This document shows, in pieces, positions 9,238 through 62,600 of a stretch of 64,000 nt of DNA. Position 1 is the stretch's first letter. Every line of letters starts with the position of its first letter. The position numbers and the translations under genes are program-made. Below the pieces are notes generated by a model. It had not been told where the DNA came from. It saw only the letters and a program-made list of their open reading frames with translations, and searched no databases. Source of the stretch: Amoebophrya sp. A120 (Eukaryota > Protista > Dinoflagellata); NCBI GenBank assembly GCA_905178155.1, contig CAJINV010000004.1, positions 1,713,929-1,777,928 of the forward strand, read 5' to 3'.

Positions 9238-11465
9238 GTGATTAGTGATCATGTTTGTCTTTTTTCTCACCTCCATACCAGCGTGATTTCTTTCGCCTGG
9301 AACACTTTTTGCTGGCTGGTTTTCGTCTTGCTTTTCGGAATTCCGTTGTGGTTGTTCCTGTTTTGCTGCTTCCTGTTTTGTATGAAATGTAAAAATGTCT
9401 GGGTCTGGAAGAATGCGCGATTTGTCATGCAGCTTTTCCATGACCCATGAGGTCTGGAATGCAGGACATAGCATGACAGATTCTGCGCGATCTTTCCCAT
9501 GCCAATCCTGCATGAGAAACTGCCTCCCGACTTGGTCAAAACTGGACGACTTTTGGTAATCATGCAATACAGATTTTTGCATGCTTCAGATTTAGCATGA
9601 CAAGTTGGATTCTTCCAGACCCAGACATTTTTACAGTTGATATTTTGCTGCGACCCACAGTACAGCATCAACGCGTATTTTAACGAGCCGCCGGACGGGT
9701 ACTTCCTGCGAAACAGCGACTCGAAATATTGAGAGAAAAAATCCCCCCTCCCCATATCGAAAAGGTATGTTTCCGAAAATTTGTCTTGCTGATTTGGGAC
9801 AACAAATCAACACGTCTGTCTTGCAAGAAGACAACCCCGCAGGCTCTGCCGCATTATGCAGGCGGTTCGTGATGCTGCTGGGCCTACAGCATAGTCGTTT
9901 CTCATGCTAAGCGCTGCGCCTAGGCCAAAAGCTCTCTACTCAGGCTCGGCAGGAGCCTGCAGCCCTCTACTGCAAGACAGGCCTGATTTGTATACGCATA
10001 CCCAGCATCAGAAACTCCCTTTTGATATGCGGAGGGGGGATTTTTCCTTTTGATACGAAAGCTGCGGTGGCGAAGGAACTACAGGCGGAAGCGAATCTGT
10101 ACGCTCCGGGGCGGGCGCTGCCGCGGGCAGTGGTGCAAGCAGGGGCTGCATCAGGACAACTAGATGGTGGAGGTGGTGTAGCTGGATCGGTAGGAGTACA
10201 ACTAGGACCGCAGCCAATTTTACCCGCACCTGGAGCTGCAAGAATTCCACCCCAAGACCAGGCCGCGGCCGCGGCATCGCAAGCAGGCCAAAAAGTTCAG
10301 ACAAACGCCACGAACTACTTTACAGCAAGTGCGGTGGAGAATTACGGTTACATGGAGAGTACAAATGCACCGGGAGCAGGTCTTGTTCCATACGCCGCGC
10401 CGCCAGACTCCTCTTTTGTCGCAACCGGAACTTCTGGCACAGCAGCTGCTTCATCAGCAGGCACGGTGAAGACCGCGCTTCAGCAAAGCCGTGCAGTGGT
10501 GGAAGAAGTGCCGCAAAAGCAATCGGCGTCCTCCACCGCATCGGGAACAACTACTGTTGGCACCCGTTCGGTGCCGGCGATACAGCAAATGCCAGTACTG
10601 CAAGAAGACCAAACTGCCCTCGTTTCTGGGCGGACCGATCAAAACGGTGGACTGGCGGGTACGGCCGCGGTAGCAGCAACAGGGAACAATTATATCAAAC
10701 CATCGGGGGCAGGAGCAACAACGAGTAGTGCCGACCCGACTGTCGTGACGAGGAAAACGCGGCGGGCTCTTATCAAATGCAAATATGTCTGGTTCTGGAA
10801 GAATGCAGATTTTTGTCATGCTGTTTTTGCATGACACAGAAAGTCTGTCATGGAAGCCCTAGGAGCATCACAGATCTCGAGAACGTTCCGCAATGCAACC
10901 CCCCTTTTTGGTGACAGAAAACGGAAACCTTTTGCTGCCTATGCATGAGAGATTTGCGCGCGTTGTGGAATTCGCATCACAAATTTTTTGGATCCTTCCA
11001 GACCCAGACATTTTTGCATTTGATAGCTCGCGGAGTAGAAGAACAAGTCCTAACCGGACCTCCATCGGCCAGATTAGGCGAGAATGATGAAAATTATGGA
11101 ACAAATGATCAGCAACAACCGAATGGAAACGTCTTCTTCAGCACGGATGACGGGCAAGCATATTTCTCAAGCGACCAGGTTCGATATGAAGATGGACTGC
11201 AACAGTATCGTACTCGTATAAATGCATATACAAATTTCCTCAGCATGAGAAATAAAGTTTGTATTGCGGATTTGCTATAAGAAAAAGATTTGTAATGCAA
11301 GACTTGCATTTCTACGAGTGCGATACTTCTGCACAGGATATTCGATCCTCCGAGCAGCAAATAAGCGGAGCAGAAGATGACGGATCTGCATCACCGCGGT
11401 TGGCGGGCACGCCGACCGAAGATACGCTGGTACAGGATACGCGAGGGAAAGTTACTCCTTCCTAG
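9238..11465 (+). CDS. Hypothetical protein with one hydrophobic (TM-like) segment and a low-complexity tail; 4 introner introns; start uncertain
   Basis: Frame joins across elements 9381, 9727, 10771 and 11185: FLFC|CDPQY..DSK|AAVAKE..TRRA|RGVEEQ..QVR|SSEQQ..TPS*. Confidence 0.65.
9381..9642. mobile_element. Introner family A
   Basis: DR ttttg/ttttg. Confidence 0.92.
9727..10055. mobile_element. Introner, single-copy family G
   Basis: aaaaatcccccctcc/ggaggggggattttt TIR; DR cgaaa/cgaaa. Confidence 0.85.
10771..11025. mobile_element. Introner family A
   Basis: DR gctct/gctcg. Confidence 0.9.
11185..11340. mobile_element. Introner family B (reverse orientation)
   Basis: DR ttcga/ttcga. Confidence 0.88.
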
Positions 11466-12427
11466 GACCTGTTGAATGTGCTGGTGTTGGTTCCTGTAGA
11501 TCAAGGTACTAGATGTTGACCGTGTAAAAATGATGAAAAGGGGTCTGAGCTTCATGTTTCAACATCTCGTGTGCGACCAAGATTATATCGACGTCGACGA
11601 AAATGTACGATTGTATTAAAATTGATAAAATGTGATACTGAGCACAAACACCGAAAATCAAGCATGTTGCGTCTCGTGATGCGGCGTCATCGCCGCGGCG
11701 GCATCCTCGTGAGGAGCATTTAGTTGGCGGAAAGCTGTCCGAAACTTGGAGCAGCTAATGTTGTTCTTGTGGTTATCATATTGGCATAGGTATTAGTGGG
11801 AGCAGGTCAGCAGATCTCCATTTGCAGAGAAACCATTTTGAGAATGATCCATGAACAATGGCGCGCATGGAACCTATTGTCGTTTTTTTCTGCTTCAATG
11901 ATTTTTTTGGATACACTGCTCACACAACCTGCATCTCGATCTATGTGCTGTCTGGATCTGCATTTTGTGAGGTCTGTGATGACGATCGTTTTTCATCTTG
12001 TAGCTCTTGTGAGATCAGTTTTTCGACGTCATTTTTTTCTTCTCTATTATACCAAGGAAGGACTAGAAGTCCTTCTGGTGTTATTACCTCCGCTTGTGTA
12101 GTGTTGGTCTTGGTTTTCGCTACACTAGTATCTATCTTCTAGTCTAGCTGTAGCCCAGAGGTAGTGCCAGGTGACCACCACCACGCTGTCCTCGTCATAA
12201 AATTGGCCGCTTTACATATGATTCTACACGACGTTGCTTTCTTATTGGCCGTGAAGCATGGCCCTAGTGACGGACGGCACCGGCATCTGGGTAAAACTAA
12301 AACATCATCAACCACTCGATATTATGAGTAAAACCAGAGGAGAACTTAAAATTGCAGTGGGTTGAAATTTTTGTAACTGCCTTGTGCTTGTTCTCTCACT
12401 CTCAGCCAAGTTCAACAAGGCAGCACC

Positions 12428-15400
12428 ATGATCTCCTCACCGGGTCCACATGGAGGACTACTACAACCTGTTGGTGTCCTGGTGCGGCAGAGCAGTGCGT
12501 CATCTTCAAGTGCTTATCCTGTGCAAAAGTATCGTACTCGTAGTAATCGCAATTATGCATTACAAATCTACTTGTTAAGGTAAATCCGCATTACAAATTT
12601 AATATTGTAATGCTGCGCCAATTTGTATTGCGATTTATACTAGTACGATGCTTTTGCAATGCATAGTGCTTCGTCTAGTACAACGTCCGGCAGATGTTGG
12701 CCGTGCAGAGGACGCGATGTCGGCGCGACCTGTCGTCGAGTGAAGGTGTCGTCGACATCAAGTGTGTCTCATCATCTACACGTGCGAAAAAGATCCTCTA
12801 CGCCGGTCCCGCACGACGACCAAGGACACGCAATAAACAGAAGAGCTGCAGCCTTGTTCCGATGTTTCCCCAGCAGATCTTCTGCTTCGCAAGTCCCACG
12901 TCTTCTAGTCGTGGTGGACGAGGACATATTTCTTTCAGATGGGCACCTCCGACAAGGATTGTTTCTTCACAACCTGATGAAAATAAATCCTGTGCTCGGG
13001 AGGTGTACCACAAATATCAATTTTTCATCGCAGAAGCGTTTTTTCTCGAAGAAAAACCGGAAAGAGGACAAGCGATGGCTTTCTCGGGTGGACAACCCGG
13101 TGAAGTATGCCGAGGAGCATATCAAATGCAAAAATGTCTGGATCTGGAAGGATGCAACTTGTGATGCTGAATTTGAATTCGACAAAAATCTGTATTGCGA
13201 GGACAGCAAAAGAGGTCCAGTTTTTGCCACGGCAAGAGGGCATTTCTCATGCGGTATAGGCATCAGGAAGAGGAAGCCCTCACAAAATCTGTGATGCTAG
13301 AGCCTGCGTCACAGACTTCAGGAGTAATGCAAAGTGTGCATGACAGACCTTGCATCCGTCCAGACCCAGACAGTTTTGCATTTGATAGAGCAGTACGGCG
13401 AGCAAAGCCGCTTACAAGACAAGATCGAGGGCCACATGTTCGTGCCCGAGACGCTGTCCGTGCAGCAGCTCGTGCTCCACTGCAGCAAGCTGATGCAGGC
13501 CCGGGATAAGCACACCCCGCAGTTGCTGGACCAGTACGCGAGCCGGTGCTTCGCTCTGTCCAGCATCTTTCAAGCCAAGGACTTGTCTCTCTTGCTAAAC
13601 TGTTTCGCCAAGGCAAGGTATTCGCCCTGGATCCGGGTCTTGAAGCCGGAATTCCGGAGAACGCAAAAAGAAATCCAACGACAGAAGCTGCCCGGAACGA
13701 ACTCGCCCTTGTTGGCAAGGTACGCGGGAGAAGGGTCCGGGGGGTTCAATCCGCTGCAGGGGAATAGAGACGGCATGCTGGAACAAGCAGGGAACAAAAT
13801 AACTACCGACGGCAGCAAGGATAAGGATCAACATCAAGGTCTTCTGCGGGAAGATGAAAATGAAAATGAAGACGGCTACGGGGCGAGCCTGCCAAGTGAC
13901 TATCTGGAGGGCAGACCGTGTTCGCTCGAGCAGAAAAAAAGTGCACACAGCAACACCGGACGAGTTCTTGGCGTCGAAGCAGCTGCTTGTTCCGCCACAT
14001 CGTCCTCTGCCCTAGAACCACCTCTTCCAGACTCCTCGTTAACAACACCCCAACATGACGTCGGTGAAATCGAAAACTCGCAGCACGCGCGAACCAGAAC
14101 GAACCTGCAATCCCTGAATAATTCCACGATCGACTTTGACAAGGACACTCTCCCGCACCCGCTCCTGCTTGCCATCGCCCCGCGGGTGAAACGCGTGTTG
14201 CGCAAAGCCGTGGCGCAGGACTTGGCCCTGTTTTGCAACGCATACGCCAAATTGCAAATCCGCTGCCTGTACGTAGTGCAGAAGTGATATCGCACTACTA
14301 GGTAGTGAAAAAGAAAACTCGAACTGCATGATTTACAAACTTGCGCAGCAGCATATAATGATAAATGTAAATCAAATTTGTCTTGCCGATTTACATTTAG
14401 TGTGGAAAGGCAAAGGAGCTTTTCTGTCATAATGCTTAACGACCGCAAGTAGTACGAGTGCGACACTTTTGCATAGGATAGCCTGCCGGTCTTTAAGTGG
14501 TTGTCAGCGGAGATCCCGCACAAACTGACGTTTTTTGATATGGCGTCCTCAAATGTTACACTCAGTCACTGCTGTTACATGAAGTTGGAAAAATGCAAGA
14601 ACTGATTCCTGTGGTATAAAATGAAAGCGGGGCGCCGGCGCTTGCGCGTCATGCTCCACAGATGATTTGGCAAGGATTTCAATGCTTGCTGGCGCATGAG
14701 AAACTTTTCATGCGAAGTGGAAGCAAGTTGTAGCTGGATCGATCGTGTGAAGAGTCGCCTTAGTTGTAATTTTGCATGACAAATTCAAATCACGTGTCTT
14801 ATCAGCGACTAAGTGATGTAGCGTTCTTTGAAAGTGCCATATTTGAACCGCAACACCTCGCCATGGTTGCGTCGGCCTTCGCGAACTTGCAGATCCCCGA
14901 TAGACTGTTGATGGGCGAGATTCGGACGGAGATCCTGCAACGCCGGCCCGAAGATTTCGAGATGTCGCAGATCGTCATTCTGGCGAGTGCGTATGCGAAG
15001 GTGAAAGGGAATTTCTACGCGCAGAAAGAAATCATGCTGATGCGGACGAGAAATAGTTTGTTAAGGTTGAACAAACTAGGTAGTGTTGGACGGCATAATT
15101 CCCAGGGACTGGGACACGGACAGCAGCAACAACTTCTGCAAGATTCAGGAAGCTGCACGGCTGCCAGCGGTTCTGATTTACTGCGAACGACGAGGTTGGA
15201 ACTATTAAATGAGGACCCGGCTACGAAGGACTACGGTGCTGAGGACGAGATAATTGCGCAGGGAAATCATGATGTAGTTGACCCTAAAAATGCGAATGAT
15301 TTTCCTTCTGCAAATCCGAAAAGTAGTAGTTATACCAGTGCAGGAGATCTGACAGACTCTTCCTCCGAGGAACAGGATCTCTTCCGTTTCGCCGCCGAGT

Positions 15401-18400
15401 TTGTGATCGAGAACCCGACGGATTTGACGTTTGCACACTGTTATCAAACGCAAATACTTATCTCTGGGCGCCGGGAAGGCTGTGTAACTGAAATCTGCCA
15501 TGCAGGTTCCGCATGGCCCAGAAGATCTTGAATAAGAAGCCACCCTCCGAAAGTGAGTGAGTTTTATTCCTGCTCACGCAATACATTTTTTTGTATAAGA
15601 ATAGAACCCAGACCCAGCAGAGCAAACTCAAACTGGAACTCTTCCACTACAGACGTCCAGGGATAATGTTTGCAATGCATAACTGCATTGGCGGCTTGAA
15701 CGCATTTTCAAAGACGAGTCTGTGGCCCGCGGTGCTGCCGGTACTAGTAGATGAGTTGACTGCTCTGTCGAGACCGCGGAGGTGGACAGATCTGCACCAT
15801 GATGACCCTTGCACGACCAGCATGTCAAGAACTTCTGCTCGTTCCAAATGGACACTTTTCGACGTGGGCACGGTTTGCGCCGCATTCCGGAGGATTTTCG
15901 CGCAGTTTCCGAGAATAGAGCAGTTGCACAAGAACGGAGACGAGAGTGGAAAATTCATGCCGGCGACCTCCACACGTGGGGCGGGAAAAGAACCAGAGCC
16001 CGATCTCTACACAGGTGAATTGATGTCCACAGGAAGTAGTTCAAGCGGAAAAAATGTTCACCAAATTGCAGCTGAAGAGGGTACTAGCAGGGCTTTTTCT
16101 TATTCAGAGGATGACGATTTTGACGACGTTAGCTATATGGAGGACGAGCTGCAGGAAGGATATAAAAATTCTGCACACGACGTCGACCACAATCGACGCA
16201 CGTCGAAGCCCGGCGAACAAAACGACCGAGCCACGGTGCTATCTCCTGAGGAGCTGATCTATTACAACCTCGCCATCGATGGGTGGACGCGCGTGTGGGA
16301 CTTATTTCACAAGCACTCCCTGGTTTTGCACGACCCGTTAGTGTATCAACAAGGCAGTGATCATCTAGAAGTTGTACTGGAGACAACTACTACGAGTGAA
16401 CACGGCCGCGGCTGTGCACCTTTAGCTACATCTAGCGGCACACAATCATCGAAAGAACCCAACACCCGAAGAACACAAGAACAACCGCGCTTATTAACAC
16501 AAGCCAAACTTTCGGAGCAGCTTGACAGCTTCCTGCCGTGCACATTTCTCGCTCTGGCGCAGCTGTGCGCCGACGTGCGGGTGCCTGTTGTGACGTCGTC
16601 TTTCAGTTGTATTGCAGGCCCGGCGACGAGCAGCTGCGTCCCTCCAACTTCAGCCTCGGCACATTTCGAATTGACGAAGTGGCTTTTCGATTTGGTGGAC
16701 GCAAAAGCGGACCGCGTATCCTCGAGCGCAGCTGGTGGTGCTTCTAGTAGTTGTACTCCTTCGGGCACCAGAGCTGCAAGAACCGGAGCTAGTAGTACTT
16801 CTTCATTTTGGAACTCTTTCGACACGCCCTTTGTCCTGTCCTCTTCCTTATCAAATGCAAATATGTCTGAGTCTGGAAACTTGTAATGCTGGAAGTGAAT
16901 GAGGGTTCCACTGCAATACGGAGCCAAGCATGACAAATTTTTCGGCGCCTATGTGTTGCGTTTTCCGCATGGCAAACTGCGTTTTTGCATGACAGGTAAG
17001 AGGACCGCTTCGCGCCTATGCAGCACAAATTCTTGAGTCATGTCAGACATGCATGACAAATGTAGCGATCTCGCAGACCCAGACACTTTTGCAATCCATA
17101 ATCCTTAACTGCGTTGGCGAAGCTTCACGGTCGAGTTGCACATGCTGATCTGGGTGAGGTAGAGCTGCGAGAGGAACACGAAGTAGAACTCCAAAAATTC
17201 ACACCACGGTCACCTCCTGGCGAGCAGGAACAACAAATTGAACTGCAGAGAAGGAGCTCGAGCTGCATGAGGAAAGAAGGCCTGCAGCTCCGCATTCGGA
17301 AAGTGGGGATGCTTTTGGGAAAGCGGGCAGCCACGATGTTGACCAAGCAAAAACTCGAAATCAGCAGTCAACAAGCAGGTGTTCCGGCTACAACTAGCGA
17401 AGACGAGCAAGAGATGAGGAAAACTTCGACAATCTCCACTGCAAGAACGCCCGCTTTCCAGGCTATCGGCAGTGCGGAGGTGCTATGCACTGCAAAAGTA
17501 TCGTATTTGTATAAATGCATTACAAATTTTCTCTTCATGAGAAATAAAATTTGTAATGCGGATTTGACTTAACAAAAAGATTTGTAATGCATGACTGCAA
17601 TACGAGTACGATAGTTTTGCACAGGATAGGTGCTGGAGTTTGACACACAGAATCCCCACATTGGGGTTCTGAAACACGAACCGGTGCATTATCATTTGTA
17701 AAAACGTCCCTACCCCAGAGTTGTGATGCAGATTTGCAATGGCAGGAGCATTTGTATTGCGCATCTCCATGAGAGGCGTTTGTAGTCATGTTTTGCGATT
17801 TGTAATGCTGTCACCAGGATAAGCAGATGGATTTGAGATGCGTTTGTCGTTGCTAACCTGCACTACACTACGGACTGCAACTTGTGATGCGTGAGTCCCA
17901 AAGCTTCTAGGTTTGTGTTGCAAAATCCCCAGGTTGACTCTGGGGAGGTGGGGACGTTTTTACTCAGGATATGCAGAACGAGAAAAGTTTTTCGCTACCG
18001 GATTTGTGCAACATCCTGCACGCGCTCGGGAAATTGAAGATCAAATCCAAGATATCCCACGAAAAAACTGTTTCACTGTGATGATTTTGCAAGATTTGCA
18101 TCACAAGTTTGTTACACATGACAAAGAAAACTTGGCATGCGTGCTTCCTAAGGGAAAACACAGCGAAAAATCCAATGTCTTGCATGTGTAGCAAGACAAA
18201 CACATTTGCGTTTGGTTCTATGCATCACAAGTTTACAGTGAAACAGTTTTTTCTTGCGATACAAGATCTTGCTCTACCTCTGCTGCCACAAAATGCTGTA
18301 TCCTGTGCAAAACTATCGTACTCGTATTGCAATCATGCATTTACAAATTTTTTTCCGAAGCTAAATCCACATTCCTCATGCTGAGGAAATTTGTAATGCA

Positions 18401-19752: not shown

Positions 19753-22618
19753 ATGGTTCTGGTACAACTACCCACGTCCCTACGCGCAGGGCTTTCAAGG
19801 TCCTCCTCCGCAGCTCCATCATGGCCACTCTTCTCGACTATTTTTGGAGCTCCGACCACTCCGAGGGCAAGTTGGAGGGCACCGAGTTCTCCAGGGGTTG
19901 ACGCGCCACCAGTGGCACTACGGCGCAATCGTGATGCGTTTTATTTTCGACCTGCTGCGATAACTAAAACTATTACTAGGGGAATATTTTTTGCAACAGG
20001 ACGAGGGGACAAGAAGAACTCCTCTACATCTTGCGGTTCTACCACCACCGCGAAAGGAAGACGTGTGTCGCTAATGTTACCCCCGCAATTGAATGAGAGT
20101 GATCTTCTTCTTCCAAGTATTGCATTCGGACCCGCGCAAGCAAACGCAAAGTTCTGCAACATCACGCCCTTCCAAGAACTTTCGAAAATGCAGATTTCAT
20201 CTCGCAGGTTGTTCAGTTCATCGCCGCTGTCAGGGACACCGATACGTACTGGCGCCGCTTCTGGACCTACAGCAACCTCACCCCCGCAATCTTCTGCGCC
20301 ATCGGGAACAGCACGAGAACATGAACAAGCGACAATAGACGATAGTATTACTAAAATGCAGAAGAACATCCAGTATCCAGTGCAAATATGTCTGGGTCTT
20401 GAAGAAGAGTAGGACTTGTAATGGCTGTCTTGCAACATTCCTGGAAGGCGAAAGCCTGTGTTGCGTGAGCAGCAAAAGAGCAGCTTCCTTTGTCATACAA
20501 AACCGAACTTTGTCATGCGGGCTAGTCATGATCAAAAAGCGTTCCAAAAACTTGTCATGGTCAGCTGCCAAAAATGCAATGCGCAGCAATCTATCATGCG
20601 CATTCAGCATCACGGGTTTCCAGACCCAGACATATTTGCACCGCACATACAGAACGACGCAGCAAGTCCGAGTACTAGCACAACCACTTCCACCAGCTCC
20701 ATCCCCGTCGAAGTCCTGCAGACCCAAGTGACCGACCTGCAGACCCTATGCACTGCAAAAGTATCGTACTCGTATAAATGCATTACAAATTTCCTCAGCA
20801 TGAGAAATAAAATTTGTAATGCTGATTTACCTTGACAAGCAGATTTGTAATGCATGATTGCAATACGAGTACGATACTTTTGCACAGGATAGACCCGGGT
20901 CGAGAAGCTGGAGAAAACAGCTAAGTCTGCCATATGGCGTTCGCAAACGCTATATTCTCAACTGTTACATGAATTTGTAATGCAAGAATGCCAAAAGTGC
21001 AAGGGTGAAGATTGCGCCTTTTGCATTACAGGTTTGGCACAGATTTAGATGCTGTTTAAGTAGCCCTTTGGAAATTTGTCATGCGAAGCAGCTTGATGAT
21101 AGTGATACTGATGAGAGTTTTACATGACAAATTCACGCACCACTTGAGAGTGTAACGTTTGAGAACCCCAAATCCCAAGTCCGCAGGTTTTCTCGCGAGG
21201 TTCATGAGCTTTTTCCAGGAGTACGGTACGCCTTTCATCATCTACTTATCAAGTGCAAAAATGTCTGGGTCTGGAAGGGTTGAAACTTGTGATGCAAACT
21301 CTGGAACGCACAAAAATTTGTGTTGCATGAGCGCCAAAAGCTGCTGTCCATTTCTTGGCACGTAAGTAGGAAGTTTCTCATGCGGGACAGGCATCATGAC
21401 GCTTGCTCAAATCCTGTGATGCTTTTGCCTGCATCAGACGCCATTTGCGTGATCCGAAACATGCATGACAAATCTCGCAATCTTCCAGACCCAGACATTT
21501 TTACATTTGATACTACTACGGGGTCGCGTATTGCGGAATGTTCGTAGGGTTTCTCGCGCTGTTTCAACTAGAAACTATGCCAGTGCACAACTGCTTCTGT
21601 CTCTCCTCATTTGTTATGCTGAAAGAACGCAATTCCATACGATGTCGATGCGTTGCCTGGTGTCGGGACTGACTGGCATGACAAGTTTCAGCTTCATCTC
21701 GAACAACACTTCTTCTAGGATCCGCAGGTAGATTTGTTATGCAGAGCATGCATCTCATTCTCATTCTCATCTCCATCTGCCACCCTTTCTTGCTAGTTCG
21801 CCATAAAATTTCAAATGGGTAGGAGTGGAGGTCATGATTGTGCAATCTGACAGAAATCCTCCCGGATCCGTTGGATTTGCTGGACCAGTTTGGGTTCGAG
21901 CTGCCGGAGTCGCTATCCAAGTTGAAAATGACCTGTTTTAGTGTGTTAAGTCTGTGTATGTACAAACACTACAGTAGCGATGACGTATGCGTGTCCACAT
22001 GTTAGCTGCGCATGAGGATGAGTAGCTTTCTTTGTCGTGCAGAGTAAATTTTTGATGCTAGCACTGTCCAACTCCAAGAGTGCTATGCCAACATGCACAC
22101 AATTTTTTTCCTGGATAGTCGCTGCTCAGCAGGGTCGAACGGGGTGGCGTCGGAGGCGGTGAAGATGATAACAACGGGCCTGATGGAAGAAACGATGCAT
22201 CGGTGGGAACACCCATATGGGATTGTTCTCAACTGTTACATTCTCAACTGCTATATGATTTGTCATGCAAAATGAGCATCAACATCCACACAGGGAAGCT
22301 ACTTCGCATGACAAATTTTGGAAAGGCGAAACAGCGCCTAATTTGTGCGGAATTTGTCATGCTAAAGGTGCAACCTCCCTGCTTTGACTTTTGCCAACAT
22401 TCTTGCATTACAAATTCATGTAACAGTTGAGAATGTAACACTTGAAAACCTCATAACCCAGTCCAAGCAAGCGCCCACTCTCCGAACGTGTCGACCCCTT
22501 CTGGCTGCGAGTTTTGGTCTCGTTCGTACTAAACGAGGCGCTCGAGGTACCCAGATTCTTGCTGGTCGCAGCCACGTTCAAACCGCTGCTGGCACTGTTC
22601 CAGAAGCTGAAACGGTAG
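19753..22618 (+). CDS. DUF1279/FAM210-like mitochondrial membrane protein; 7 introner introns
   Basis: Spliced product contains RFMSFFQEYGTPFIIYYGVAYCGMFVGFLALF and VLVSFVLNEALEVPRFLLVAATFKPL, resembling the DUF1279 pattern; transit-peptide-like N-terminus. Confidence 0.7.
20374..20647. mobile_element. Introner family A
   Basis: DR tccag/tacag. Confidence 0.82.
20747..20891. mobile_element. Introner family B (reverse)
   Basis: DR gaccc/gaccc. Confidence 0.92.
20933..21172. mobile_element. Introner family C (reverse)
   Basis: DR tgcca/tccca. Confidence 0.85.
21247..21512. mobile_element. Introner family A (reverse)
   Basis: DR ctact/ctact. Confidence 0.92.
21576..21852. mobile_element. Introner family I-like (diverged)
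   Basis: tgcacaa/ttgtgca termini; DR gaaac/gaaat. Confidence 0.7.
21914..22117. mobile_element. Introner family D-like
   Basis: DR gtcgc/gtcgc. Confidence 0.8.
22216..22455. mobile_element. Introner family C
   Basis: DR accca/accca. Confidence 0.9.
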
Positions 22619-24788: not shown

Positions 24789-25078
24789 TATGCATTGCAA
24801 CTATGTCTCCGCCTGGATCTCGTCTCTGTGATGCTATTTTCTACAATAAACAGAGTCTGCATATATTGCACGAAGCGGTTTGGGGAGCTTTTTCGTCGTG
24901 CTGGAGGTCGGTTTGGCATGCGATTTCCAAACGACTCGGCAACAAGCTTGCAAAAACTTGCCATGCATTTATTATCTGCAGCAGACCGGTTTCTCATGCA
25001 AGAATTAGCCATACACACGCGCACAGGTCCGCTACTTCTACTTTCCAGACGCAGACAAAGACATATTTGCAGCGCATA
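24789..25078. mobile_element. Family A-like element; host gene not resolved
   Basis: tatgcattgcaactatgtct/agacatatttgcagcgcata; DR decayed. Confidence 0.6.
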
Positions 25079-52554: not shown

Positions 52555-55049
52555 ATGCTTCTTGTACTTGTTCCACCTTTTACATCGTGGCGAGGACGGC
52601 CACGCCTACGAGCTCAGCCACCGCTCGTGCTAGCCGCTCTGAGGGTCATCGTCGCGCACCTCGGATGTCATCTAGTATCGCCTTCCCACGGCCATCTCCG
52701 AGGTCAAAACGGAATCAGATCGCGAGCAGGAGAACAAGAAGACACGACCGCGGCTGGGGAAGACTCGACTCAGTTGATGACGAATGATCCACACGAGGAC
52801 ACGATACAGACACAGGCGTTTTTGGAGCTGGACACGTCGGGAGAGGGCCGTTCTACTTCCATGCTGGAGGAGGGAGAACAAGACCAAGATGATCTACTTC
52901 TCTACTCGGGAAAAACGTCAACAACAAGAACAGCATCAGCAGCCCCCGCCGCGAGCTCGACCCTGTTGGAGATGGAAGTCGGGACCAGAAGTATGGAAGC
53001 GTCAGGATCCAAATCGACAAAGTTGAAATAGAAATTATTTGTCATGCATAAAATGCAACCCACAAAGTGCCTGTCTTGCAGCGTAGGCAAGGGAGGCAGA
53101 TTGTAAGCCTGCTGAGGGATAGAAATAGAGCTGCTAAAGTAGTATGACAAAAGGCGCCTTCCTTACCCAAACAGCATTACAAACTGGATTTAGGCACCAC
53201 CAAAATTTGTCATGCGCCACTTACAAACTGGGTTCCAACTCGCATCCATTTTGTGCATGACAAATCATTTCAACTTTGTCGATTTCAAACCTGACACTTC
53301 CATAAGAAGCAAGCTACCAGAAGGTGGAGCCTTCTCGTTCCGAGTATGCAATGCAAAAGCATCGTACTAGTATAAATTGCATTACAAATTAGCCCAGCAT
53401 TACAAATTTGATTTGTAATGCGGATTTGCCTTGAGAAAGAGATTTGTAATGCATGAATGCAATTACTACGAGTGCGATACTTTTGCACAGGATACAGAGA
53501 GCCGCTGCGGCCGCACCAAGTGGGACTGATCGGAGGTAATCACTCGTTGCGTGGTGTCAAAACGATCAACGATCTGGATTTCTACGACGAGTATCGCGGT
53601 CACAAAATCGGGCACCTCGAGACTGTGGTCGGCCTCTTCACACAGTGTCACAAGCTGCCGGCAACCAGTCCCAATTCCTGTCCCGATACGAGCATCGTGT
53701 TCCTGTTGGGGGATAGCTCTCTGGACAACAAGCACTGGCTGTATCCCACGAAAAACGACAAAGGAGAGCCAGACAAAGCCAGCCTGGCCGACGGCTCATT
53801 CACCGCCCCGGCTGTCAACGGCTACGAGAAGGTTGTGGGTGCGAGCGGGCGGATGGTCAAAGACGTCTGCTACTGGCTCAACCGGAAGTCCGCAGAATCT
53901 TCGAAATGGTTCAAGCAGAACGAGGAGGACGTGCTGGTGAAAGAGCACCCGTACCCACACCTCCTCTTCGTGAACTCTGCCGTCGAAGAGTCGACGCTTT
54001 CCAGCCGCGCATCGGGGCTGCTTCCCCAGGACAAGTTTGTTTCGAACCACCTCAAGCCGCAGGATATTCTCTTGGTCTCCGTGGGGCACAATGACATGGC
54101 GTTTCTCCACGTGCAGCAAGCGGCGCGGGTCTATGCAAGAAAAAAACTTTGTATAGTGTAACTCTGAAATGCAGAACATGCAAGAACAGAGTTACGCCTG
54201 TCATGCCAGATAACCATGAAGTCCTCTTTTCGTGTGTGTTTTCCCTTACAAGTCACGCATGACCGGATTTCTCTGAGATGTAGAGCAAATTTGTCATTAC
54301 ACTTACGCTAACCAAAGAAGGTTACACTAACACAGTTTTTTTCTTGGATAAGGTCCTGCAAGAGGGCACGACGGATGAAAAGCTGACCCAGTTGGCGGTC
54401 GAAAACTTTTCCCATATTTACAAGGAGGACACGGAGCGGTACATCAACAGTATTCTCGGGGACTCGACGTGCAAGATGGTGGTGGTGTGCATGCTCTACC
54501 ACCTGGATGAGAATGACGAAGCATTTTCGTGGTGGGAAAGGGGGTTCCAAGCGCTGGGCCTCATTGGCAACCCGGAGAACAAGCGGCGCATGAAGGTGGT
54601 GCAGCACGCGCTTTTCGAACACGCGTTGAAGCAGCTGCAAATCCCGAACGCGGAGAAAGTGGTTCCCCTGGAGCTGTCGCGGGCACTGGACGGGACGAAC
54701 TCGCTGATGTACGAACAACGTGTTGAGTATGGCGTTCTCAAATGTTACGTTCTCAACTGTTAATACATGATTTGTCATGCAAAACTACAATCTATCAGAA
54801 TCTGAATCGGCACGGTCAAGCTGCTTCGCATGACAGATTCTTGAAGGGCCAAACAGGCTGAGAAACTGTTCTTCCAAATCTTCCATGCGAGACGCGCAAG
54901 GTCACCCCGTCCACTTTTTTCATTCTTGCGTCACAAATTCATGTAACAGTTGAGAATGTAACAGTTGAGAGCGCCATATGGAGCCCAGTGTCCTGGGGGG
55001 CGAAAAACTGGCGGACTTGATTCTGGACACCATCAAGGAAAACTTGTAA
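52555..55049 (+). CDS. SGNH/GDSL-hydrolase-like protein; 4 introner introns
   Basis: Block I IVFLLGDSSLDN, block II NSAVEESTL, block III LVSVGHND, C-terminal VEPSVLGGEKLADLIL in the last exon (54979-55049). Confidence 0.75.
52992..53304. mobile_element. Introner family E (opposite orientation to the 46752 copy)
   Basis: DR agaag/agaag. Confidence 0.92.
53345..53494. mobile_element. Introner family B (reverse)
   Basis: DR ccgag/cagag. Confidence 0.9.
54132..54350. mobile_element. Introner family D
   Basis: DR gggtc/aggtc; GT-AG register 54129-54352. Confidence 0.88.
54728..54978. mobile_element. Introner family C
   Basis: DR ttgag/tggag; alignable with 1853-2098. Confidence 0.92.
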
Positions 55050-56619: not shown

Positions 56620-59600
56620 ATGGTGGTCCACCTCCAGCAGGCCCCGCCTGTGATGAATAAGCTGCGGGTGCGTCGCAGCACCGACCACGCAGAGTTCGTA
56701 TCCTGTGGAAAAATATCGTACTCGTATAAATGCATTACAAATTTCCTCAGCATAAGAAATAAAATTTGTAATGCTGATTTGCCTTAGCAAAAAGATTTTT
56801 AATGCATGATTGCAATACGAGTACGATACTTTTGCACAGGATACTTCGATTTTGACGGCGAAAACGAAGAGATCCCGACCGAGTACCACGACCACCCTAT
56901 TGTCGTGTCTCTACGCATTGCAAAATTAAAATTATCGTACCGAGTACAAATTGCATGACAAATTTTCTCAAGAACAACAATGTTTATGTTGCAACTTGTC
57001 ATGCTAGATTACTTATGCACCGAAACAACCAAAATATAAGACAGACAGATCTGTAATGCTGATGGATGACTGCGATTAGAAGTACTACGAGCGCGATGTA
57101 ATATACTTTCGCACAGCATAGTCTCAGACATCCAACACGAACTCCGCTTCGTCCTCCTACGCAGAGCCGGTACTGTACACGAGCGGGCTACAACAGCAAA
57201 AAGGGACCACCACTGCGAACAAAAGTGCCACCTCGAATCAACAGGTAGTTAAAAGCAGCTACAATGTATCGAACAGGATGGAAATGCTGATGAACCCACC
57301 CAGCTGCACATCATCAGCGACTCAGCAACCTACAAGAACCCTTCCGCCGAGCTTTCTCCCCAACAAAAACAACAGTGGCATCGCGTTGCTCCGGAAAAAT
57401 CAACACCAGGGAGGTGGTGGCGGGAGTACTAGTGTCTACAACCAGCGTTCGGCAGCTCCATCAAGAGCTGCAGGAGGAGGAGTTGCAGGAGCAACCCGCG
57501 TATGCTGTGCAAAAGTATCGACGTACTCGTGTAAATGCATTACAAATTTCCTCAGCATGAGAAATAAAATTTGTAATGGGGATTTGCCTTTAAGAAAATG
57601 ACTTGTAATGCAAGACTTGCATTTATAAATATGAGTACGATACTTTTGCACCGGATACCGTGCGCGCAGCGCCAGCGTGACGACGCACTATACCCGCGGC
57701 GGTGTTGGCGGTGTAGCAGCAGCAACGACCGCTCCAGTGACAGAGGCCATCAATCGGGCGCTACAATTCGGGCATAGTGTTAGTAACGATGATTCCGACG
57801 TATTTTTAAACACGAGCTACGACAACGACTCCTTAGCTTCGAGGTCGACCAATTTTCAGCCAATGGCCCCGCCTTTCGTGCCATCTTCGACAAGTAAAAA
57901 CCCAAGGAATCCACCGCCCGTAGTTCACCAGTCTTCAACGGCATCGCTGCATCGAGGAAATTTTCTGCTGAGACATCCCACCGCGGGCAGTGGTGGCGCG
58001 CCACCGCGGGCAATGAGCGCAACGAACCGCAGATTTGCGACGCGGCGTGGAACAAATTTGGGAGCGGTGAGCAATGTGCTGCTCGTTCCGATGCACGGAT
58101 ATCTTGTGCAAAAGTATCGTACTCGTATTGCAATCATGCATTACAAATTTTTTTCTCAAGGTAAATCCGCATTACAAATTTAATTTCTCATGCTGAGGAA
58201 ATAATGCATTTATACGAGGACGATACTATACTTTTGCAATGCATAACGGAAAAACGGTGACGACGCCAGAGAACTCGGTGAATACCTCGTTGCTGAGTGG
58301 TGCCAGTGGTAGTGGAATGGCAGGCCAACACGTGGTCGACCGAAATCGACGAAGCCCTCACAGTTGTGCAGCAGCTGCAACTCCAGGCGGAGTAGTCGAC
58401 CCGTTGCTCCAATCTGCTGCCGCGCTCGAGCAAGCTCTGTTGGAGAAGGAGCACGAAGCACAGGAACAGAACATTGAGTCCTCTCTGATTGCCAGGACGG
58501 TTTCGTTCTCCAAGTTAAGTGGTAAGCACGACGGAACAAATACCGGGACGAACACTACTTTTGCGAATCTTCATAATGCAACTTATGATTCGGCGGGGGC
58601 TTCGAGCAAAAATTCGGCTCTGCGTCATTCGTTTTCGGAGCAACACCTACAGCATCCCGCGCGCGCGTCTCCTGGTGCGGTCGACTCTGCAATGCAAGCA
58701 GTGTTGTCGAACTCTTCGCCGATCGAGAGAGATCATAATCAGGGACAAGGAGGAATGCCGGCGCGGCCGCAGTATTACGGAGCGCAGGAGCAGCATCATA
58801 GCTTCTATCAACACGAGAACTACACAGCTGCCGTCGCTGTAGGAGTACCACGGCAACACGCAGTCCCTTCGAATAGCAGTGGAATAAATGGTGCCATCAT
58901 GCGCATGCACTCTGTCCCGGTGCTGAGTCACTCACATCGAGGACATCCCATACAACTTGCGATGTCGCAACAGCAGGGCGGCCCTTTTTACCGGTTTCAT
59001 TCCGGAAGGCAAGGGCTGCAACCGACTTCTATGGGTTTTGCTCCCGCCTCCGAAGCGGGACATGAGCACCACGCCGCTCCGTACGCTTTTCCGGCCACGA
59101 CTTTTGCTTTTGCGGGGCATTTTTACCCACATCAACAGCTCAAGAGTTCGCAGCCTAACGCTAGTACAACAGGCAGCAACCCCTTCGAAACGCCGCAGCA
59201 AAGCATCATTCCGCCCCACGTGGCCAGTGCCGGACCGGTCCCGGTGCATTCTAAATTATCTGTGTCCCTTATGACAGTGCACAACTCCCCCTCCGCCTCA
59301 TTTGTATAGCATCAACGGCAATACAAGCGTCAGCAGGAGTGCGGGTTTAGCATGACAAATTTGCACAGGAGTGTAGTGCTATTTGGGCTACCAGAACTTG
59401 TCATGCATCATAGTGACAGGAGGCAAAGCGTAGATTTGGCACTTTGCATGAGAAATGAGAACGAGGGGGAGTTCTAGTGCACTCTCATATCCCTGCAAGA
59501 ATCGCAACAGACAGTCCTGGAGGCCGGCGCCGGAGCACAACATCAAGCACCACCGCCAGTGCCCACATCGCACTTTTCCACGCTTCAGTTCCAGCCAACG

Positions 59601-62600
59601 ATCGTCCCGCAACATCCGATTCCGAGGAGCCCGAGCGCGGCGGCTGCGGCGTCGTTGGCGTTTCCGATAGTTGTACAAGCAGCTGCACCAGTGGCGAGCA
59701 GAACTGGTACTGCGCCAAGAATGGTCGAGGACCACTCCGTAGTTCCTCCTGTCGTCGTGAAAACCCGGAATCACGATTTTTTGAACGGGAAGCCGATGCA
59801 GCTGCCCACCTCGACTACTGGAAACGTGGTTGTTGTATCGAGCGGAAGTAGAAAGGAGCGGGCTCGTGCTGTCGTGGTACCAGACCGGGGCCGCCAGGAG
59901 GATGATCAGAACGTCCCCGAAGAGCAGCTGGGGAATTCTAATTCTACTTTACCAGGCGGTGTAATCCATATTCCCACGAAGGAGCTGGCGGTGGTCGAAA
60001 GGTACTACTCGTCCGAAGCTGAAGCACGGGACGAGCAGGACGGAGAGCACGACCTGAATGGTGATCGTGAAGACGTAAACCAAAACGCAATAAAACGCGA
60101 TGCAGCGGATCATGATGATCGTGACGTGCTGCACAAAGATCCTCCCGGGCGTGTTGCTGAAAACAACAAGAAGATGAATTTGGCAGCTGTATTACTAGAG
60201 GAGGAGTTCAACAATACGGAGCATTGTCAGCTTGCTGGAGGAACACTACAACAACCGGAGGAACATCTACATCACCAAGGTCTTGCACAGCATCACACTA
60301 ATTTCGAAATCGCGCCACTGGATGAAAAAGAGAACAGCAAAGAGCTACGAGAAGCTGCAGGAACCTCCAGTAGTGTATCATCTGCTACATTTTCCAAAGC
60401 CGTCAAGCTCCCGGCCATGAACCAGTTCTGTTTCTATCAGGAACCGCCCCCATGTGTAGTAGCTGCATCTGGTACAACTTCTTCGGAGCACATCCATTTC
60501 TCGGACGAAATTGCGCTTCCACTGCCTGAAAATCTAGTACAACACGACGACTGCTCATCTTCATCCTCAATAGTTTCGAATTCCGAAATGGTGAAGAATA
60601 ACATACTGATCAGCATTCCAGTACCGGTAGAACTCGGCGACAGTGAGAAGGAAGAACAAGAAGGAGAATCTGAAGACCCCCGGCACGACCTCGGTGCAGA
60701 AGTGAGAGTAGAAGTTGTGCACGACATAGAAGAATGCAACAAAAACCTCCTGCGAAATCACAACGCGAGCGGGGTTGTAATGAAAAATGCTTCGTCTGTA
60801 AGCGGCGTAGCTGGAGGCGGTGGTGGGACAATTACTTCTTCCACACAGGGCCAATGCAACTACACGGCGACAGTGGGAGCCGTACAAGGAGACGAGACGG
60901 AAAAAGCTCCGTTTGCTGCACCAGCGCAACAGGATCGGCGCGAAGATGGTGGTATCGCCGGCAACTACAAGGGAAATAAGTTTGTCGTGGATGCAAATAA
61001 GAACAGCGGCACTTCCGACAAAAAACAAAATGCGATAAGGATCAATGCGCCTACTACAAGAACTCGAGTACAATCACCTACAACCGCCGCAGCTGGTTCC
61101 TGGACTCCCTCCGTCGCCAAAGAGCGGTTTGTCCCCCAACACACGCAGGACCAATACTTCGAGCAGACGCTCCGGTCGCCAACCTCGACGCCCAGCAATC
61201 TCACGCCGGGATTTGGAACGAACAGAAGTTCAAAAGCAAACCACTCCCGATATGGCGCTCTCAACTGTTACATTCTCAGCGGTTACATGGATTTGTGATG
61301 CAATAATGGCAACAGTTAAAGGGGCAAGCTTGCTGCTTTCGCGTCACAGATTTGGCACAGATTTAGATGCTGCTTAGCCTCTCGGAGATTTGTCACGCGA
61401 AGCAGCTTGGTCACGTGGCGGCTTAGGGTAGTCTCGCATGACAAATTCATGCAACAGTTGAGCTTGAGAATGTAACGTTTGAGAACTCCATACCCGAGCT
61501 GCTGGCGCTGTGCCTGCGTTTAATAATACTCGCAGCAGAAGAGCGAGCTCCGTGGACAAGCTCGTCGCGGATAGAGTAGAACAAGAAGATTTAGCACCAC
61601 CTACGCCAACATCAACTTCAGAACGAGAAATGAAGGCGACAACTACCAGCACAACTACAACGGAGAGAATAAAGCAGAATGCGAAGCCGGTTCTTGTGAA
61701 GATTAGTCTGAGCAAGCAGATCGAAAAATCCGCGAAACTGCGCAACCAATTGGAGCAGCAGTTGGTGGAAATTGAGCGGCTCAAGCAGAAGACGGAAGTA
61801 TCACATGAGTGAAAACTGGGCCCACAGCACCCCAGACCCAGAATCAAGATGGAACTATTGCAACACAAGTGCAGAAGTGTGACCCATCTGTGGTGTAGTT
61901 CAATTTAGCAAGGCCAGCCGCATCACAAAGCCGCTTTCTGTTTCTTATCTTCTTTACAGCATTACAAATGCCAAAAGAAACACGAAGATTGAAAATGCCA
62001 CTCATGGTCATGGCCATACTAGAGGGTGCGCCTAATTGAAAATGTTTCTGCAAGAATTGTAAATCTGCGCGCAACATGACAGCTCTGGGCTGCAGCTGGG
62101 GCAGACGTTTTTACCCCGGATACGGAGATTGCCGAGCAGAATTTGCGAAACGGGTGAAGCACTTAACGCGGGGAATGGCACAGTTGCGGAAGGATTTGTT
62201 GACTACGCCGAATCGGAAAAGGACCAATGAAAAATCTCTTGCGGAGCTGAATAGGCAGAAAAGGGATGCCGAAGAGGGGGTGGTGGCGGCTGTGAAGGAG
62301 TATTTTGTCCTGTGTGTACTTAGGTTTCTATTTCTTGCCCTACGCAATACTAACGTGGTTCTTAAAAGGATTTCTTCTTGGTCATTTCTGAAAAACTAAA
62401 ACTAAAAACAAATTGATCCTATTCCATTCATATAAATACAGGTGGGAGTCCCTGGAGCGTCGCGAGCGCGAAGTTCGGGCGCGACTGCAGAGCACGAGGA
62501 CCAAAGCTTTGTCTGCGATCAAGAAAGACCGGGAATCCAGTGTACAACAGGAGCGGCTGCAGCGTGGAATTATAACACCGGCGAACCACAATATGCTGTT

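What the first reader, a model, noticed from the sequence alone, without database searches (positions are those of the whole stretch)
9381..61492. One 8-bp motif, GCAT(G/T/C)ACA, recurs in multiple inverted copies inside otherwise unrelated introner families
Seen: gcatgacaa, gcattacaa, gcatcacaa and their reverse complements (ttgtcatgc, ttgtaatgc, ttgtgatgc) appear several times per element in families A, B, C, D, E, F, H and I, often just inside each TIR. They are rare in exons and in the Copia ORF. All families also share TAT(C/G)...(C/G)ATA ends and the 5-bp DR. Inference: a single trans-acting protein serves all families. It could be a transposase binding subterminal repeats (as in hAT/CACTA elements) or a factor that marks the RNA/DNA for removal. 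The motif persists even in copies whose TIRs have decayed, which hints at selection for splicing rather than for mobility.
Basis: partly seen in the sequence, partly recalled or inferred. Interest (0 to 1): 0.75.

Follow-up and report, generated by a model that had tools for sequence, protein, structure and literature searches.

The report
Spaced binding-site code in mobile introns
In a marine parasite whose genes are full of small mobile elements that act as introns, many element families share a short, precisely spaced DNA motif that likely serves as the docking code for the still-unidentified protein that copies them, while their removal from transcripts likely depends on the element ends instead, because copies that have lost the motif are still cut out.

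Summary
The motif is real. The window is Amoebophrya sp. A120 or a very close strain, and the elements are its known MITE-like introners (TAT…ATA ends, 5-bp target duplication).

- Enrichment: 146 of 155 GCAT[G/T/C]ACA sites lie in 73 elements, 8.7/kb against 0.19/kb outside.
- Conservation: across 20 families the seven fixed bases diverge 4.5%, background 17.2%, base 5 23.8%.
- Spacing (not found in the literature searched): the first site lies 33-35 or 40-48 bp from each end; same-strand pairs are 30-33 bp apart (29 against 4.1 expected).

'Selection for splicing' is not supported. One motif-free element is spliced and a second is inferred to be. Motif density falls with TIR decay. The motif shows no gene-strand bias. 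Constraint is three times stronger on internal tree branches than on terminal ones (0.12 against 0.38).

All 16 splice joints fit one fixed cut, 1 nt before TAT and 4 nt after ATA. The terminal T is protected only at the gene-5′ end (0 against 8 of 321).

Best reading: a dsDNA binding array for the mobilising protein. No transposase was found, and an ortholog test leaves some host constraint open.

The parts
1195..1350 (.). 5′-truncated element (approximate start), 4 strict sites, intact right end
1420..1688 (.). introner F1, 2 strict sites
1853..2098 (.). introner F9, 4 sites
2201..2317 (.). introner F17, 2 sites
2402..2524 (.). shortened F0-like introner, 2 sites
9381..9642 (.). introner F1, TSD TTTTG, 3 strict/5 broad sites
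9727..10055 (.). introner F7, 0 strict/5 broad sites
10771..11025 (.). introner F12, 4 sites
11191..11340 (.). F0 introner with damaged left end (start approximate), 1 site
12515..12665 (.). introner F0, 3 sites
13120..13387 (.). introner F1, 3 sites
14270..14480 (.). old introner, 0 strict/1 broad site
14539..14841 (.). introner, 1 site
15442..15681 (.). old introner, 0 strict/1 broad site
16849..17100 (.). introner F2, 4 sites; skipped (+5 nt) in contig of run X1
17484..17628 (.). introner F0, 3 sites; removal inferred from X1 contig length
17690..17971 (.). introner F3, 3 sites; removal inferred from X1 contig length
18053..18261 (.). introner F11, 2 sites; removal inferred from X1 contig length
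18299..18432 (.). introner F0 in opposite orientation to 17484, 1 site; removal inferred from X1 contig length
20374..20647 (.). introner F13, damaged right end, 1 strict/4 broad sites
20747..20891 (.). introner F0 (family centroid), sites at 20780, 20815, 20846
20933..21172 (.). introner F9, damaged right end, 3 sites
21247..21512 (.). introner F1, 3 sites
21576..21852 (.). introner with right end ACA, 1 strict/3 broad sites; retained in one X1 contig
21914..22117 (.). introner without any strict or broad site
22216..22455 (.). introner F9, 4 sites
24789..25078 (.). introner, 1 site
28739..29050 (.). old introner, 1 site
29349..29591 (.). introner F15, 2 sites
30067..30331 (.). introner, 2 sites
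30381..30697 (.). introner, 1 site
32872..33105 (.). introner F8, 2 sites
33176..33333 (.). introner F0, 4 sites
33373..33575 (.). introner, 1 site
33631..33884 (.). introner, 2 sites
33918..34126 (.). introner F5, 5 sites
34146..34429 (.). old introner, 1 site
34990..35270 (.). introner, 1 site
35319..35611 (.). old introner, no site
37374..37536 (.). introner F0, 1 site
37596..37783 (.). introner F16, 3 sites
37947..38134 (.). introner, 1 site
38643..38853 (.). old F0-like introner, no site
38906..39202 (.). introner with approximate ends, 2 sites
39538..39849 (.). introner, 1 site
39856..40120 (.). introner F1, 3 sites
41304..41626 (.). probable old introner, right end not placed, 1 site
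41831..41979 (.). introner F0, 3 sites
42063..42216 (.). introner F0, 3 sites
42707..42867 (.). old introner, 1 site; joint skips element +5 nt
42914..43177 (.). introner F3; joint limits cut to TSD offset 4-5
43281..43429 (.). introner F0; joint limits cut to offset 0-4
43477..43754 (.). introner F2; joint limits cut to offset 2-4
43823..44087 (+). canonical GT-AG intron in the same transcript, no motif (control)
46294..46561 (.). introner F1, shared with L071, 4 sites all intact in both
46752..47058 (.). introner F6, 5 sites; absent in L071 (empty site)
47133..47281 (.). introner F0, 3 sites; absent in L071 (empty site)
48304..48515 (.). old introner, TIR 6/16, 1 site; spliced (offset 3-5)
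49051..49207 (.). introner F10, 2 sites; spliced; absent in L071
49560..49888 (.). old introner with NO strict or broad site and right end ATG; spliced (offset 4-5)
49974..50085 (.). introner F17, 1 site; spliced
50431..50703 (.). very old introner, no site; removal inferred from 278 missing nt and ORF continuity
50797..51009 (.). introner F4, shared with L071; a different site is broken in each strain
51159..51384 (.). old introner shared with L071, 1 site
52992..53304 (.). introner F6, 4 sites
53345..53494 (.). introner F0, 4 sites; shared with L108
54132..54350 (.). introner F5, 1 site; shared with L107
54728..54978 (.). introner F9, 2 sites
56699..56843 (.). introner F0, 2 sites; spliced; shared with L106
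56912..57120 (.). introner, 3 sites; spliced; shared with L106
57501..57657 (.). introner F0; joint limits cut to offset 4-5
58100..58245 (.). introner F0, 2 sites; spliced
59270..59489 (.). introner F4, 2 sites; spliced
61251..61492 (.). introner F9, 2 sites; spliced
61799..62122 (.). old introner, 2 sites; spliced (offset 3-5)

Best explanation
The elements are short non-coding insertions with TAT…ATA ends and 5-bp target duplications that are removed from transcripts, and the motif they share at fixed spacings is likely a double-stranded-DNA binding array for the as-yet-unidentified transposase (or its DNA-binding partner) that would mobilise all families. SHOWN: enrichment, base-specific conservation, the spacing rule, recent insertions with clean empty sites, removal of element plus 5 nt from RNA-type contigs, and splicing of a motif-free copy. 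INFERRED: (1) a multimeric protein binds 2-6 sites per element. The first site lies 33-35 or 40-48 bp from each end, partners lie about 32 bp away on the same strand, often with an opposite-strand site about 16 bp between them, or 35 bp (convergent) or about 47 bp (divergent) apart. (2) Only copies with a good array are copied again, so the motif is filtered at each transposition and drifts after insertion. (3) Host splicing uses the ends as a ruler: the 5′ cut falls 1 nt before TAT, which puts the terminal T at intron position +2 as in GT, and the 3′ cut falls 4 nt after ATA. No flanking GT or AG is needed, so either orientation and any target can work.
For: Conservation: fixed motif bases 4.5% (432 changes, 9,674 cells) against background 17.2%, base 5 23.8% and terminal 15 bp 9.7%; the motif/background ratio is below 0.62 in all 20 families.
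Spacing in 20 consensuses against 5,000 random placements: same-strand 30-33 bp 29 vs 4.1; divergent 45-49 bp 12 vs 2.4; convergent 34-35 bp 7 vs 1.0; no simulation reached the observed value. 37 elements outside these families repeat the same-strand peak, with 14 pairs at 31 bp. Spacer identity across superfamilies is only 0.30 vs 0.24 shuffled.
DNA level, not RNA level: elements insert in both orientations (F0 50:43); motif divergence is 4.7% sense vs 4.6% antisense, p=0.76; base 5 shows no clear complementarity between opposite-strand sites (408 vs 395±8); five families have single-strand arrays.
Mobility-level filter: motif/background change ratio is 0.117 on internal and 0.381 on terminal branches (14 families, 523 copies). 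Full neutrality after insertion would imply 2.5% post-insertion drift, and the terminal T at the gene-3′ end shows 2.5% (8 of 321, CI 1.1-4.9%). The TSD-mismatch clock gives d(motif)/d(background) = 0.78 (CI 0.24-1.94). Copies with no intact site number 7 against 7.4 expected under independence.
Splicing without the motif: 49560-49888 is skipped in X3 and X4; 50431-50703 is inferred from 278 missing nt, and removing ten elements at offset 4 gives one 1,228-codon ORF.
Cut geometry: 16 of 16 joints skip element plus 5 nt and all allow offset 4; three exclude offsets below 4 and two exclude 5. The terminal T changed in 0 of 321 gene-5′ ends against 8 of 321 gene-3′ ends (p=0.007), with a strand-symmetric interior mutation spectrum. 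The TSD shows no G or AG bias (341 elements).
Precedent: Lemi1 proteins bind MITE subterminal repeats cooperatively (PMC1636448, abstract).
Against: No autonomous element or transposase was found in 608 kb of loci or by an integrase-core search, and Farhat et al. report no putative transposase in A120 (PMC7789003 section 16).
Orthologous copies reflect post-insertion change only, and they show fewer motif substitutions than neutral: 3 of 181 against 92 of 1,641 background (pooled Fisher p=0.02; about 9.7 expected when stratified by hand). Counting indels too, 6 of 22 sites are broken against about 8.5 expected, which is inconclusive but leans towards some host constraint.
The terminal-branch ratio (0.38) is well below 1; I ascribe this to unsampled transposition history, since only about 0.6 Mb was sampled, but that is not shown. 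Parsimony on short elements can also push recurrent changes onto terminal branches.
The spacing windows were chosen after seeing the data, and families within a superfamily are not independent.
The p=0.007 at the terminal T is one of 30 positions tested and would not survive Bonferroni correction alone; positions 16-30 are also slightly better kept at the gene-5′ end (6.9% vs 8.3%, p=0.008).
X1-X4 are contigs of one sample, only guessed to be RNA. One X1 contig retains element 21576-21852.
Confidence: 0.62

Rival explanations
1. Dual use or host factor: a host DNA-binding (chromatin) protein reads the spaced array and marks the element for co-transcriptional removal, replacing part of the role of the apparently missing U1 snRNP; mobility may use the same protein.
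For: Ortholog substitutions in motifs are lower than neutral (3 vs about 9.7). The terminal-branch ratio stays at 0.38. U1 was not detected in A120 (PMC7789003). DNA-level binding would also be blind to orientation.
Against: Motif-free copies are spliced. There is no deficit of copies without intact sites (7 vs 7.4) and no 5′/3′ asymmetry of outer sites (3.7% vs 4.4%, p=0.26). Constraint is three times stronger on internal branches. Motif density falls with TIR decay.
Confidence: 0.22
2. The motif is an RNA-level splicing signal, either a single-strand protein site or a stem formed by inverted copies that brings the ends together.
For: Many elements have sites on both strands, and Farhat et al. 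propose hairpins.
Against: Sense and antisense sites are equally conserved; base 5 does not clearly covary; five families have single-strand arrays; ±1-bp spacing over 32-47 nt suits rigid duplex DNA; motif-free copies are spliced.
Confidence: 0.05
3. The motif is a vestige of one ancestral transposon end, shared by descent and no longer functional.
For: Families group into superfamilies, and 40-50-bp motif-bearing modules are alike between some of them.
Against: Within-family conservation is four times background with a free base 5; the internal-branch ratio is 0.12; spacing is kept while spacers diverge.
Confidence: 0.03
4. The mobilising enzyme is a retroelement-type integrase acting in trans (from an LTR element or an integrase-derived Ginger-like gene), guided to the ends by a separate motif-binding protein.
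For: LTR elements mostly make 5-bp TSDs (PMC6839031 passage). A120 family 38 has integrase-like ORFs (PMC12130899) and is annotated 'Ginger; 5-bp TSD, TA/TA termini' (its supplementary file 8). The window holds an intact Copia ORF.
Against: The window's Copia LTRs carry no motif and its ORF carries one site. I could not see the family 38 sequence. This reading overlaps with the best explanation and differs mainly in which enzyme cuts.
Confidence: 0.08

Closest known systems
Amoebophrya sp. A120 introner elements (Farhat et al. 2021, PMC7789003; passages, section 16 and supplement legends read, figures not seen)
   Same: IRs starting with TAT and followed by an A-run, 3-5-nt direct repeats (5 bp in their Fig. 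S19 legend), non-canonical splice sites, no coding capacity; the top two protein hits of a window exon are A120 proteins.
   Different: The passages read describe no internal motif or spacing rule, call the splice sites variable (IR 1-5 nt from the site), and argue against general transposase mobilisation. Here a shared internal array and one fixed cut offset are found.
A120 TIR-DNA introner families of Gozashti et al. 2025 (PMC12130899; passages and 41 of 58 A120 rows of supplementary file 8 seen)
   Same: TIR elements of matching lengths (about 149, 209, 252-260, 305, 317 bp); family 38 is listed with 5-bp TSD and TA/TA termini.
   Different: Most rows are superfamily 'Unknown'. The two motif strings searched do not occur in 13 of the 14 supplementary files (file 14 not searched).
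IS3EU/GingerRoot DNA transposons (PMC10045372, PMC6839031; passages read)
   Same: TA…TA termini, TIRs, no target sequence preference with a GC-rich lean.
   Different: They usually make a 6-bp TSD; here it is 5 bp. No transposase is available to compare, and the terms 'subterminal' and 'sub-terminal' do not occur in the GingerRoot text.
MITEs with transposase-bound subterminal repeats (Emigrant/Lemi1, PMC1636448, abstract only; hAT and CACTA subterminal repeats recalled, not checked)
   Same: Short non-autonomous elements whose internal repeated motifs are bound cooperatively by a trans-acting transposase.
   Different: Here one motif spans about ten superfamilies with different TIRs, follows orientation-dependent spacing, and the elements double as introns.
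Euglenid nonconventional introns (PMC11282704, passages read)
   Same: TIR-bounded, TSD-flanked introns with non-canonical junctions and conserved bases at fixed distances from the cuts.
   Different: The passages give CAG/CTG pairing at +4-6/-8-6 and pyrimidine|purine junctions; here T at +2, ATA ending 4 nt before the 3′ cut, and no junction base bias.

Membership tests
Amoebophrya A120 introner elements | IR beginning TAT with downstream A-run | tested here: met
   End logos of 421 elements; the first three bases were part of the search rule, the A-run at positions 11-14 (80-94% A) was not.
Amoebophrya A120 introner elements | 3-5-nt direct repeat at the boundaries | tested here: met
   5/5 match in 411 of 558 copies found without a TSD filter; empty sites with one copy.
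Amoebophrya A120 introner elements | Spliced from mRNA with non-canonical sites | tested here: met
   16 of 16 joints skip element plus 5 nt, in contigs that also skip a GT-AG intron; the runs are only guessed to be RNA.
Amoebophrya A120 introner elements | Host is A120 or a close strain | tested here: met
   Top two hits are named Amoebophrya sp. A120 (89% over 44% of the query, 44% over 91%).
MITE (non-autonomous TIR DNA transposon) | Short, non-coding, TIR, TSD, high copy number, recent insertion polymorphism | tested here: met
   summed contig depth over element bins is up to about 160,000 against about 30 on unique DNA (not a copy number).
MITE (non-autonomous TIR DNA transposon) | Cognate autonomous transposase that binds the ends | tested here: inconclusive
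   None in 608 kb of loci or by integrase search; the whole genome was not available.
IS3EU/GingerRoot | TA…TA termini | tested here: met
IS3EU/GingerRoot | 6-bp TSD (usual) | tested here: not met
   Joints skip exactly element plus 5 nt in 16 of 16 cases; insertions add 5 bp.
IS3EU/GingerRoot | IS3/integrase-like DDE transposase | not testable with these tools
   No autonomous copy in hand.
   TAT ends and 5-bp TSD. It may work like their subterminal repeats but is not a member.
Canonical U2 spliceosomal intron | GT/GC donor and AG acceptor | tested here: not met
   No G enrichment before TAT and no AG in the TSD among 341 strand-assigned elements; only T at +2 is kept.

The most novel reading that the evidence does not exclude
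A120 introners split their two jobs between two codes. An orientation-dependent lattice of GCATnACA sites (about 16-bp pitch) lets one unidentified TA…TA, 5-bp-TSD transposase mobilise roughly ten unrelated MITE superfamilies. A spliceosome apparently lacking U1 cuts by ruler from the TIR (1 nt before TAT, 4 nt after ATA) with no splice-site sequence from the host, so any insertion in either orientation becomes a perfect intron. That would explain the tens of thousands of 'variable' non-canonical introns with one rule.
Probability: 0.45. Interest if true: 0.8.

Novelty: new variant of a known kind. Interest (0 to 1): 0.6.

Why it matters
How A120's tens of thousands of non-canonical introns move and are spliced is an open question: Farhat et al. 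found no transposase and no U1 snRNA and called the splice sites variable. The shared, spaced motif gives a precise bait and search key for the missing mobilising protein. The fixed cut offset turns 'variable' boundaries into one testable rule, which would also correct gene models. It shows how a transposon can make harmless introns anywhere without carrying or borrowing GT-AG. The elements themselves are already known, which caps the score.

Tried and rejected
- Whole genome: none held for the window; locus records not held for genome search.
- Viral contigs: 0 matches to the family pattern.
- Autonomous element: 7 long TIR-bounded candidate rows in the loci. Four share ends with short elements. 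The others are L030:6184-6998 (listed twice, also as L114) and L041:821-1792, known-family elements with motif-free inserts; L030 has no long ORF and L041 was not translated. tblastn with the window's Copia ORF hit only itself. The 529 ORFs extracted from spliced loci were not scanned against Pfam.
- Integrase-core protein search: 1 hit (41% identity, not named as Amoebophrya), no lead.
- Raw RNA runs X9 and X10 matched only small pieces and gave no evidence on splicing. No holder is on record as RNA.
- ORF versus non-ORF context: only 9 family-assigned copies lay outside ORFs (motif 5.9% vs 4.6%), too few.
- Broken-end copies: 36, ratio uninformative (CI -8.5 to 9.4).
- In one search the pair at 51159 was mislocated; it was dropped and redone. 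In one search four elements had imprecise ends; three were corrected and 41304 was dropped for the 72-element test.
- RNA-stem role rejected. hAT/CACTA membership rejected.
- Earlier scan findings: three look-ups returned nothing.
- 'Not in print' rests on paper searches and supplement searches. Figures, subscription papers (for example Roy et al. 2023) and one supplementary file were not seen.

Full report
WHAT THE WINDOW IS. An exon at 53502-54131 has two Amoebophrya sp. A120 proteins as top hits. The repeats match the introner elements described for that strain: IRs starting with TAT, then an A-run, and short direct repeats (PMC7789003, passages, section 16, supplement legends). No genome was held. 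A pattern scan of metagenome contigs returned 140 loci with the same families, 608 kb after removing overlaps. L071 is orthologous to about 44-52 kb of the window and L106-L108 to parts of 53-57 kb.

THE OBSERVATION. One search found 157 GCATnACA sites, 155 with G/T/C in the middle. Four of the outside sites belong to a truncated element. Because curation partly followed motif hits, I also used motif-blind calls. 421 elements defined by ends, TIR and exact 5-bp TSD (2.7 false calls per shuffle) carry 10.4-12.5 sites/kb against 1.33 outside; 407 of 421 have at least one site. After masking all detectable pieces the loci give 12.0 against 0.23/kb. The Copia element has one site, and three canonical-type introns (one RNA-supported) have none. 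The full motif is GCA(T/A)nA(C/G)A(A/G)(A/G)T.

FAMILIES. 384 of 421 elements fall into 20 families of three or more. These join into about ten superfamilies (F1/2/12/13; F5/8/11/15; F7/18/19; F4/9/14; six singles). With ends and motifs masked, only two within-superfamily matches remain. So 'unrelated' holds between superfamilies only.

CONSERVATION. Against family consensus, the seven fixed bases diverge 4.5%, the fifth base 23.8%, other interior positions 17.2% and the terminal 15 bp 9.7%; the ratio is below 1 in all 20 families.

SPACING RULE. The outermost site starts 33-35 bp (14 ends) or 40-48 bp (24 ends) from the terminus in 38 of 40 family ends. Same-strand pairs at 30-33 bp number 29 (4.1 expected), divergent pairs at 45-49 bp 12 (2.4) and convergent pairs at 34-35 bp 7 (1.0). 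None of 5,000 random placements reached these values. Smaller peaks lie at 15-17 bp for opposite strands. The windows were chosen after looking, but 37 elements outside the families show the same 31-33 peak. Spacers are nearly unrelated across superfamilies (0.30 vs 0.24 shuffled), and several hold a partial opposite-strand site midway. I infer a lattice of alternating sites about 16 bp apart, read on duplex DNA.

DNA OR RNA. Elements sit in both orientations in genes (F0 50:43; strand assigned for 341 of 579 elements by ORF length). In 321 family-assigned copies, sense and antisense sites diverge equally (4.7 vs 4.6%), outer sites at the gene-5′ and gene-3′ ends do not differ significantly (3.7 vs 4.4%, p=0.26), and base 5 is not clearly complementary between opposite-strand sites (408 vs 395±8). 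Five families have all strict sites on one strand.

MOBILITY OR SPLICING: evidence for mobility. On trees of 14 families (523 copies) the motif/background change ratio is 0.117 on internal and 0.381 on terminal branches. If the motif drifts freely after insertion, this implies 2.5% post-insertion divergence, and the terminal T at gene-3′ ends shows 2.5% (8 of 321, CI 1.1-4.9%). Copies with mismatched TSDs gain motif changes at 0.78 times the background gain (CI 0.24-1.94; 558 of 575 copies). Copies with no intact site are not rarer than chance (7 vs 7.4). Motif density falls with TIR decay (rho 0.37, p=0.0014). Element 49560-49888 has no strict or broad site and a damaged right end, yet is skipped in contigs of X3 and X4. 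Element 50431-50703, also motif-free, accounts for the remaining 278 missing nt, and removing all ten elements of that gene yields one 1,228-codon ORF.

MOBILITY OR SPLICING: evidence against. In 11 orthologous pairs motif substitutions were 3 of 181 against 92 of 1,641 background (p=0.02 pooled; about 9.7 expected by hand stratification). With indels, 6 of 22 sites were broken against about 8.5 expected (one pair redone). A partial host constraint is therefore not excluded.

HOW THEY ARE SPLICED. One search listed 15 joints (15 more not shown): 14 elements and one GT-AG intron. With one more joint from its pieces table and one, all 16 element joints skip element plus 5 nt. Mismatches between the two TSD copies bound the cut: three joints need offset 4 or more, two need 4 or less, and all allow 4. 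That places the 5′ cut one base before TAT and the 3′ cut four bases after ATA. Independently, the terminal T never changes at the gene-5′ end but does at the gene-3′ end (0 vs 8 of 321, p=0.007, one of 30 positions tested). The eight cases keep recognisable TSDs (most 4-5 of 5), and interior mutation is strand-symmetric. Flanks show no G or AG bias. Farhat et al. placed the IRs 1-5 nt from the splice sites, the ambiguity a 5-bp repeat creates. Caveat: X1-X4 are contigs of one sample, only guessed to be RNA; they do skip a canonical intron, while contigs of X5 run into the elements. One X1 contig retains 21576-21852.

MOBILITY IS RECENT. 46752, 47133 and 49051 are absent from L071, and L071, L107 and L002 have their own insertions, each leaving or adding one 5-bp copy.

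THE MISSING PROTEIN. None was found, in line with Farhat et al.. TA…TA ends recall IS3EU/GingerRoot, but these usually make 6-bp TSDs, so membership fails on a tested feature. A120 family 38, with integrase-like ORFs, is annotated '5-bp TSD, TA/TA termini' and is the best lead; I could not see its sequence. Cooperative binding of subterminal repeats by a MITE's partner transposase has precedent (PMC1636448, abstract). hAT and CACTA features are recalled, not checked.

VERDICT. The elements are known. The shared motif, its spacing rule and the fixed cut geometry were not found in the papers and supplements searched (PMC11282704 and PMC11453091 passages); figures and subscription papers were not seen. 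New variant of a known kind; best explanation 0.62; interest 0.6.

Noticed in passing
window 2569-8952: Copia LTR retrotransposon with an intact 1,809-codon gag-pol ORF (2940-8366; RVT_2, SH3, Pol_BBD and gag hits) and LTR-like direct repeats about 93% alike over 235 bp including flanks. It contains no introner, and no clear TSD was seen at the putative ends.
   Followed up: partly
window 1-1157: GC-rich tandem array of about 96-bp units (7 copies, 116-784) followed by 11-23-bp GGGGTGTGT-type repeats and an inverted short repeat; possibly subtelomeric or satellite DNA.
   Followed up: no
window 21576-21852: Element with right end changed to ACA is retained in one X1 contig (21545-21881). Its length plus 5 is a multiple of three, but all three + strand frames have stops. 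It may reflect retention, pre-mRNA or DNA.
   Followed up: partly
window 44144-51912 vs L071; L002 vs L018: Indels between strains look very often 3 or 6 nt long even inside introners and non-coding DNA, mostly short tandem duplications; not counted.
   Followed up: no
L030:6184-6998 and L041:821-1792: F9 and F1 elements that carry several hundred bp of foreign, motif-free sequence while keeping both ends and the TSD. Part of the L030 element matches L014 at 98% over 190 bp. Its 815-bp length is close to the 808-811-bp families 38 and 196 in PMC12130899's table, but no integrase-like ORF was seen.
   Followed up: partly
window 9556-9643 and 11310-11341: Raw RNA runs X9 and X10, which do not cover the host exons, contain reads with element-end fragments joined to other sequence; probably element remnants in transcripts of a related strain.
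   Followed up: no
window 39538-40120: Two elements only 6 bp apart (39538-39849 and 39856-40120), sharing the GTGGG target region; a near-tandem insertion.
   Followed up: no
window 26160-26930 and 30860-32720: Duplicated non-introner repeats (two similar blocks near 26.2-26.9 kb; direct repeats near 30.86-30.92 kb and 32.67-32.72 kb around a GC-rich 1.7-kb insert) suggest further mobile elements; seen by eye.
   Followed up: no
motif context: The reverse strand of the motif with its usual flank (TTTGTnATGCAAA) resembles the animal Sox-Oct composite site. This is recalled from memory, probably coincidence, and was not tested.
   Followed up: no
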